DNA of 64,000 bases from a virus. Its lineage: Duplodnaviria; Caudoviricetes. How positions within the stretch are numbered: the first letter of the stretch is position 1; each line of letters starts with the position of its first letter. Positions 26,466 to 26,653 of the stretch are shown here, one piece after another. The stretch is taken from positions 1 through 64,000 of the IMG/VR virus record IMGVR_UViG_3300014208_000023; one strand, written 5' to 3'. The translations under genes were made by a program, and so were the position numbers. The notes below the pieces were generated by a model that saw only the letters and a list, made by a program, of their open reading frames with translations, had not been told where the DNA came from and did no database searches.

Positions 26466-26653
26466 TGGAGTGGTGTATAACTGCTCGGGTGTTACGGCCC
26501 CGATACCACGTTCTCATAACGTTCCAACCCATAGGCGGGATTAGCAACCTATAGGCAAGATGCAATGATGGGATGATAAGATCATCGGGATAAAACACCC
26601 GGCAAATATCTCATGGCCCCAATCTTGCCGCAACCAACACTCATACCCACTCC
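26466..26653 (-). ncRNA. candidate 188-nt multibranch ncRNA
   Basis: closing stem GGAGTGG-GTAT/ATAC-A-CCACTCC-A; internal GGCAAGAT/ATCTTGCC and CCTATAGG/CCTATGGG. Confidence 0.55.

What the first reader, a model, noticed from the sequence alone, without database searches (positions are those of the whole stretch)
26466..26653. 188-nt multibranch RNA with a tRNA-like closing stem
Seen: GGAGTGG-GTAT/ATAC-A-CCACTCC-A closure with four or more internal hairpins. Its first 4 nt (GGAG) overlap the 3' arm of the upstream 20-bp element, so the two folds compete. The size is similar to 6S RNA but the fold is branched. Inference: a novel phage ncRNA matured from the hairpin array upstream.
Basis: partly seen in the sequence, partly recalled or inferred. 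Interest (0 to 1): 0.6.

Follow-up and report, generated by a model that had tools for sequence, protein, structure and literature searches.

The report
New folded RNA of giant phages
This 188-base stretch of a 428-kb bacterial virus is very likely the gene of a folded non-coding RNA: three related viruses keep its shape through matching mutations and it fits no catalogued RNA family, but it is not tRNA-shaped as first thought, and its job is untested.

Summary
The element is real and lies on the minus strand (26653 to 26466) of a 428-kb phage, among tRNA and tmRNA genes. Three related phages carry homologs with the same ends (57-77% pairwise identity), found among four related loci I could read. 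The fourth sequence, found after the model was fixed, scored 104 bits and added compensatory changes. The conserved fold is a long, interrupted closing rod leading to a three-way junction. That junction carries one variable hairpin and one long hairpin with an invariant apical loop; a 3-bp pseudoknot is possible. The closing stem is conserved as a helix, not as a tRNA acceptor: one homolog rewrites it, and no CCA or T-arm is present. The 4-nt overlap with the upstream stem is real but minor, and occurs in two of four. No Rfam family matches (6S, SRP, Y RNA, tRNA tested). Best reading: a stable small RNA cut from a multi-RNA transcript that acts in trans as a protein-binding decoy or scaffold; the partner is unknown. 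There are no expression data.

The parts
26466..26653 (-). Whole predicted ncRNA, 188 nt (homologs 191, 191 and 201 nt)
   Evidence: BLAST matches to L013 and L016 end at the closing stem; model R1 finds L065 at 104 bits, E 2.5e-32; z -2.8 to -3.9 on this strand in all four
26641..26653 (-). P1 5' strand (closing helix, 7+6 bp; first 4 nt shared with the upstream cassette arm)
   Evidence: Pair probability 1.0; rewritten with pairing kept in L065, p 0.97-1.0
26466..26480 (-). P1 3' strand with a bulged A (26474) and a 3' A overhang (26466); no CCA encoded
   Evidence: followed by an A/U-rich trailer, which is a run of 9 U in L013
26627..26639 (-). 5' strands of P1b (26639-26636) and P2 (26634-26627)
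   Evidence: P2: 8 pairs, 100% of cells paired, 2 pairs with changes on both sides
26482..26498 (-). 3' strands of P2 (26498-26491) and P1b (26485-26482), with the invariant C-rich bulge between them
26617..26626 (-). 5' strand of the purine-rich internal loop; its G-run (26619-26617) may pair with junction strand 26572-26570 as a 3-bp pseudoknot
   Evidence: 3 pairs, 100% paired, one G-C to A-U change; weak, rests on one sequence
26612..26617 (-). P3 5' strand (pairs with 26510-26505), base of the three-way junction
   Evidence: 96% of cells paired, one double change in L065
26574..26611 (-). P4: hairpin variable in sequence and length (branched in L065)
   Evidence: Predicted in each homolog with a different sequence; not alignable
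26514..26568 (-). P5: long interrupted hairpin; basal helix 26568-26565/26517-26514, apical helix 26556-26548/26535-26527
   Evidence: Basal helix: 3 of 4 pairs with double changes; apical helix 97% paired, 1 double change
26536..26547 (-). Apical loop of P5; the 7-mer at 26547-26541 is invariant and reads like a tRNA-Ser(GCU) anticodon loop
   Evidence: Invariant columns in alignment A6; the anticodon likeness is my inference and the flanking stem is not conserved
26485..26503 (-). Invariant 5-bp alternative hairpin (26503-26499 with 26489-26485) whose loop is the 3' strand of P2; probably excludes P2
   Evidence: 5 pairs, never vary; ensemble energy within about 1 kcal/mol of the P2 fold in two homologs, 3.4-3.6 kcal/mol worse in the other two
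26650..26740 (-). Upstream cassette: small capped hairpin, then a long stem around a variable insert; its 3' arm overlaps the RNA's first 4 nt
   Evidence: the same cassette type occurs in L013, L016, L046 and L065
26800..26975 (-). Second conserved non-coding element of the same array (context, not the finding)
   Evidence: Conserved in all five loci

Best explanation
This is the gene of a discrete, stable small RNA, the last unit of a phage small-RNA array in the tRNA/tmRNA region. SHOWN: a conserved fold of rod, purine-rich internal loop and three-way junction, with a variable arm and a long arm ending in an invariant loop; fixed ends; strand; no conserved reading frame; downstream genes differ. 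INFERRED: it is cut out of a longer transcript, with its 5' end at the base of the closing helix (after a cassette stem, or directly after a tRNA-like RNA) and its 3' end at the U-rich trailer. It then acts in trans by binding a protein. The closing helix and the variable arm only need to be helices. The invariant bases (P2, both loop strands, junction strands, apical loop) form the binding surface. My bet for the target is a host protein of the tRNA/translation or tRNA-directed defence machinery, which the RNA would tie up as a decoy. I put about 0.92 on 'real structured RNA gene', about 0.6 on 'trans-acting, protein-binding', and about 0.3 on the tRNA-machinery decoy in particular.
For: Homologs with the same ends, 57-77% identical. 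For 34 core pairs: 96% of cells paired, 7 pairs with double changes; 0 of 500 shuffles reach this, and slid registers give 0-1. L065 was an out-of-sample test: it was not in model R1 and adds double changes in P1, P2, P3 and P5. The sense strand is more stable than the antisense strand in all four. The next gene differs in each phage: a 65-aa ORF, a 187-aa ORF with its own strong promoter-like site, Ro60, and a small hydrophobic protein. This argues against a gene-specific leader. One relative has the array without the element, so it is a separable module. The neighbourhood holds tRNA-Ala, -Lys and -Glu and tmRNA, and in L013 and L065 a tRNA-like RNA abuts the 5' end. Phage tRNAs countering tRNA-directed defence is published (PMC10264068, PMC11555353; titles and abstract openings only).
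Against: Only four sequences, so some helices and the pseudoknot rest on single changes, and related sequences can beat the shuffle control without structure (caveat). There are no expression or end-mapping data. No partner protein is conserved next to it. The anticodon-like 7-mer is a short match (my estimate: about 1 in 6 by chance somewhere in such a loop), and its flanking stem is not conserved. The acceptor-like sequence is lost in L065. No conserved complementary target was found in the phage genome.
Confidence: 0.55

Rival explanations
1. Works like 6S RNA: the rod and the internal loop between P2 and P3 mimic an open promoter and sequester host RNA polymerase. Short product-RNA synthesis would unwind P2 and let the invariant alternative hairpin form, releasing the enzyme.
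For: Size about 190-200 nt, a closing stem, and an internal loop starting 27-34 nt from the 5' end. A latent hairpin involving the 3' loop strand competes with P2, loosely like the product-RNA-induced refolding described in PMC8876501. That paper also shows that short arms can suffice.
Against: No 6S model match at E up to 10 in the genome or in local scans. The apical arm branches 6 bp from the loop instead of forming a rod. The loop is small (9-11 by 6-7 nt) and partly paired. The strongest conservation includes the distant apical loop.
Confidence: 0.12
2. A ligand-binding or catalytic RNA: the junction and pseudoknot core binds a metabolite or cleaves RNA, and the P2-versus-hairpin alternative is a switch.
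For: Invariant single-stranded junction bases, a candidate pseudoknot with one double change, and two folds of similar energy in two homologs.
Against: No ribozyme or riboswitch model matches. The downstream genes are unrelated and no expression platform is conserved. The alternative hairpin never varies, so it has no covariation support.
Confidence: 0.12
3. A cis element only: a processing or stabilising structure that caps the downstream mRNA or ends the upstream transcript, like the stem cassettes beside it.
For: It follows processing-type cassettes. In the window the next start codon lies 10 nt after the closing stem. A U-run follows the stem in L013.
Against: A simple stem would do that job. 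The inner sequence and the junction are far more conserved than the closing stem, and in L013 the next gene has its own promoter-like site.
Confidence: 0.12
4. A Y RNA-like partner of Ro60.
For: In one relative it ends 40 nt before a Ro60 gene.
Against: The window's genome has no TROVE gene. That Ro60 has its own Y RNA array downstream, which the same scan detects (YrlA E 1.4e-7, Y_RNA E 3.2e-4), while the element scores nothing. It lacks the Ro60-binding motif and is too long.
Confidence: 0.04
5. A chance fold or an unrecognised small gene.
For: A 46-aa GTG-started ORF overlaps its 3' part in the window.
Against: The frame is broken by stops and indels in the homologs; covariation and fixed ends.
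Confidence: 0.03

Closest known systems
Orphan structured RNAs of phage tRNA regions (GOLLD, ROOL, skipping-rope, drum; own knowledge, all in Rfam 15)
   Same: Phage-borne, beside tRNAs, closed ends, covarying helices, function unknown.
   Different: No model matches; the size and the rod-plus-three-way-junction fold differ.
6S RNA (RF00013; PMC8876501)
   Same: About 190-200 nt, closing stem from the two ends, an internal loop, and a latent alternative helix next to P2.
   Different: Branched rather than rod-shaped apical arm, small loop, no model score.
Bacterial and phage Y RNAs, YrlA (RF02553; PMC4201824)
   Same: Lies next to Ro60 in one relative; long terminal stem.
   Different: No Ro60-binding motif, no T-arm module, longer than 80-130 nt, and present in a genome without Ro60.
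tRNA-Ser(GCU) and tRNA mimics
   Same: 7-bp terminal helix plus one unpaired base in the window and L013; invariant anticodon-like loop.
   Different: Stem sequence not conserved, no CCA, no canonical T-arm stacked on the stem, arms far too long; not called by ARAGORN or RF00005.
phi29 prohead RNA (own knowledge)
   Same: Topology only: a bulged closing rod, a three-way junction and two hairpins.
   Different: The two loops are not complementary across homologs; the phage has a gpA-type terminase about 200 kb away; no Rfam match.

Membership tests
6S RNA | Match to the 6S covariance model | tested here: not met
   No match at E up to 10 in the genome; the control rang in 7 of 14 genomes
6S RNA | About 200 nt with a closing stem formed by both ends | tested here: met
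   188-201 nt
6S RNA | Rod shape: central bubble flanked by two unbranched arms | tested here: not met
   Three-way junction 6 bp beyond a small loop (definition)
6S RNA | Binds RNA polymerase holoenzyme and templates product RNA | not testable with these tools
   Needs co-IP or small-RNA sequencing
Y RNA / YrlA | Ro60-binding motif near the 5' end | tested here: not met
   Not seen on reading alignment A6 against the motif in PMC4201824
Y RNA / YrlA | Encoded next to Ro60 | tested here: not met
   True in 1 of 4 loci; no TROVE gene in the window's genome
Y RNA / YrlA | Match to YrlA or Y_RNA models | tested here: not met
   No match; the scan detects the real array downstream of that Ro60
tRNA / tRNA mimic | Conserved 7-bp acceptor stem with identity bases and discriminator | tested here: not met
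   U-U mismatch in L016, rewritten in L065; following base A, G, A, G
tRNA / tRNA mimic | Canonical T-arm stacked on the acceptor stem | tested here: not met
   The T-arm-like loop covaries with the 5' strand as helix P2; no tRNA call
tRNA / tRNA mimic | 7-nt anticodon loop on a 5-bp stem | tested here: inconclusive
   The 7-mer is invariant, but only one flanking pair holds in all four
SRP RNA | Match to the small bacterial SRP model (helix 8 motifs) | tested here: not met
   No match in the genome; the control rang in 13 of 14
Any Rfam 15 family | Score near a family's gathering threshold | tested here: not met
   Only chance-level hits for all four homologs

The most novel reading that the evidence does not exclude
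A phage-encoded RNA decoy of a new fold that disarms a host machine without any protein product: either an oversized anticodon-loop bait for tRNA-directed defence, or a branched, switchable functional analogue of 6S RNA. My literature searches found no phage example of either.
Probability: 0.25. Interest if true: 0.8.

Novelty: new variant of a known kind. Interest (0 to 1): 0.48.

Why it matters
It adds an uncatalogued RNA fold to giant phages and gives a compact, well-bounded target of about 190 nt for probing, structure and pull-down. If it is a decoy for tRNA-directed defence or for RNA polymerase, it would show phages using a non-tRNA RNA as a counter-defence or takeover tool. At present the family is narrow (four sequences, one phage clade) and no function is shown.

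Tried and rejected
Exact-pattern scans of viral, metagenome and genome collections gave nothing or only chance matches. BLAST against INPHARED phages found nothing real. Neighbour proteins found no close locus in IMG/VR. A 406-kb relative found through the portal protein has no match, but it shares no DNA with this whole 14-kb region, so it says nothing about absence. A JGI contig with a 90%-identical downstream gene had no DNA available. Rejected: serine acceptor identity and a D-loop-like P4 loop (lost in L065); pairing of the P4 and P5 loops as in prohead RNA (not conserved); an anti-Shine-Dalgarno role for the 3' strand (not conserved); a regulatory switch with the upstream stem (2 of 4, only 3-4 bp at stake); antisense targets for the loop in the phage genome (the two look-alikes lie inside open frames and are within chance); a 9-nt complement to 16S rRNA recalled from memory (broken in L065, expected by chance). 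No second copy in the genome. Literature searches found no description of this RNA.

Full report
Setting. The window is the first 64 kb of a 428,320-bp phage record with direct terminal repeats. Its portal protein is only 31% identical to that of Bacillus phage G, the top match among the INPHARED phages, so the clade is uncultured and the host is unknown. Most ORFs near the finding, and all five tRNAs and the tmRNA of the window, lie on the minus strand. The finding occupies the downstream end of a 767-nt gap, 27223 to 26457, which folds at z -6.6.

Observation. There the 188 nt fold at -75 kcal/mol, z -3.78, with none of 200 shuffles as stable; the plus strand gives z -1.73. The closing helix has pair probability 1.0. 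The first four bases also complete the upstream long stem. In the full transcript, though, the closing helix wins at positions 2-7 (p 0.98-1.0), and both structures coexist with the upstream stem three or four pairs shorter.

Homologs. Pattern scans gave only chance hits. Neighbouring proteins led to related phages on contigs of up to 424 and 431 kb. Two carry the element, with BLAST matches that stop at the closing stem: L013 at 76% and L016 at 72%. I built a covariance model from these three. A further locus, L065, fetched afterwards through a downstream gene, scored 104 bits, E 2.5e-32. Pairwise identities are 57-77%. A fifth locus, L046, has the same upstream array but no element. The window's genome has one copy. 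No reading frame is shared on either strand, and the sense strand is the more stable in all four (z -2.8 to -3.9 against -1.0 to -2.3).

Fold. On the four-way alignment, 34 core pairs are 96% paired, with 7 pairs changed on both sides. None of 500 shuffles reaches this, and slid registers give 0-1. These controls are lenient for related sequences, but L065 was not used to draw the structure and still adds double changes in P1, P2, P3 and P5. The fold runs from the closing helix P1 through P1b, a C-rich bulge, P2 (8 bp), a purine-rich internal loop and P3 (6 bp) to a three-way junction. The junction carries P4, which varies freely, and P5, a long interrupted hairpin with a 12-13-nt apical loop whose first seven bases are invariant. 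The G-run of the internal loop may pair with the junction strand between P4 and P5 in a 3-bp pseudoknot; this rests on one G-C to A-U change. An invariant 5-bp hairpin can form around the 3' strand of P2. It is about equal in energy to the P2 fold in two homologs and about 3.5 kcal/mol worse in the other two. Because it never varies, it is a possible second state, not a shown one.

Is it tRNA-like? In the first three sequences the stem resembled a serine acceptor and the P4 loop a D-loop. L065 removes both: its closing helix has a different sequence and bulge pattern, and P4 ends in a different, branched arm. No CCA is encoded, and the T-arm-like loop is in fact the 3' strand of P2. Only the anticodon-like 7-mer survives in all four. 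It is a short match, and the stem that an anticodon loop needs is not conserved, so I treat it as a lead.

Context and maturation. All four copies follow the same array: stem cassettes (a capped hairpin, then long arms around a variable insert) and a second conserved element. In the window and L016 the RNA starts inside the end of a cassette arm. In L013 and L065 it starts directly after the 3' end of a tRNA-like RNA that has a canonical T-arm. So the 5' boundary is constant while the upstream neighbour changes. This fits release by processing, and argues against a conserved switch with the cassette. No promoter-like site lies directly upstream in the window. Downstream, the trailer is U- or A/U-rich. 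The next gene differs every time, and in L013 it has its own 11-of-12 promoter-like site. Earlier scan notes describe the cassettes as processing signals. I confirmed their anatomy and further copies at 52776 and about 37200, not their function.

Known families. No Rfam family scores above chance for any homolog. 6S: the size and closing stem fit, but the model finds nothing, and the apical arm is branched where 6S RNA is a rod (PMC8876501). The latent hairpin beside P2 keeps a 6S-like mode of action open at low odds. Y RNA: L016 has Ro60 40 nt downstream, but that gene has its own YrlA and Y_RNA-like array. The element lacks the binding motif and length given in PMC4201824, and the window's genome has no Ro60. 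SRP: no match.

How it most likely works. The pattern of conservation is a frame that only has to be helical (P1, P4) around a core whose bases are fixed (P2, loop and junction strands, apical loop). That is what one expects of an RNA recognised by a protein or folding into a tertiary core, and more than a processing stem needs. With unrelated downstream genes, action in trans is the simplest reading. Its place among tRNA, tmRNA and tRNA-like genes, and the anticodon-like loop, make a decoy for tRNA-handling or tRNA-attacking host proteins my first guess (about 0.3). Phage tRNAs are reported to counter such defences (PMC10264068, PMC11555353, abstract openings only). This step is inference. 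Rivals are a 6S-like polymerase decoy, a ligand-binding or catalytic RNA, and a purely cis stabiliser, each near 0.12.

Verdict. Very likely a real RNA gene, of an uncatalogued family with a corrected structure; narrow distribution and no shown function. Interest 0.48.

Noticed in passing
window 26800-26975 (-); L013 14620-14860; L016 16085-16335; L065 455-690; L046 5000-5210: A second conserved non-coding element in the same array, present in all five loci including the one that lacks the 188-nt RNA. It has invariant blocks and a probable rod fold, and no Rfam match.
   Followed up: partly
L013 14997-15133; L065 718-893: A tRNA-like RNA with a 6-7-bp terminal stem, two oversized arms, a canonical T-arm and a tmRNA-style 3' end, directly abutting the element. 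It is not called by ARAGORN and is absent from the window's genome. In L013 one arm shares 13 nt with the element's P5.
   Followed up: partly
window 26650-26740, 26989-27050, 52776, about 37200; L013 14464-14600; L016 15930-16070; L046 4800-5350; L065 300-445: Stem cassettes hold exchangeable structured inserts. One insert appears identical on reading in L016 and L046 but sits in different cassettes, and related inserts occur in L013 and L065, which suggests shuffling of RNA modules.
   Followed up: partly
L016 16646-18960: A phage Ro60 gene followed by an array of about six Y RNA-like repeats (YrlA E 1.4e-7, Y_RNA E 3.2e-4), inserted directly after the element.
   Followed up: partly
window 23012-23399 (-): A tmRNA gene (80.7 bits) missed by ARAGORN; it ends in CUA rather than CCA. 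A similar tmRNA-like sequence lies in L047 at about 14750-15117.
   Followed up: no
window 28878-28961, 29351-29404, 27549-27620, 34783-35013 (-): Short stretches conserved at DNA level in several relatives; one has a T-arm-like hairpin near 28817. Possible further small RNAs.
   Followed up: no
G000 C1 233457-235154, 364095-365558, 425320-426543: The genome encodes a CCA-adding or poly(A) polymerase-family protein (PF01743) and, judged from their N-terminal sequences only, a glutamyl-tRNA synthetase and an RtcB ligase. ARAGORN finds no tRNA-Ser among 16 genes, two of them unassigned.
   Followed up: partly
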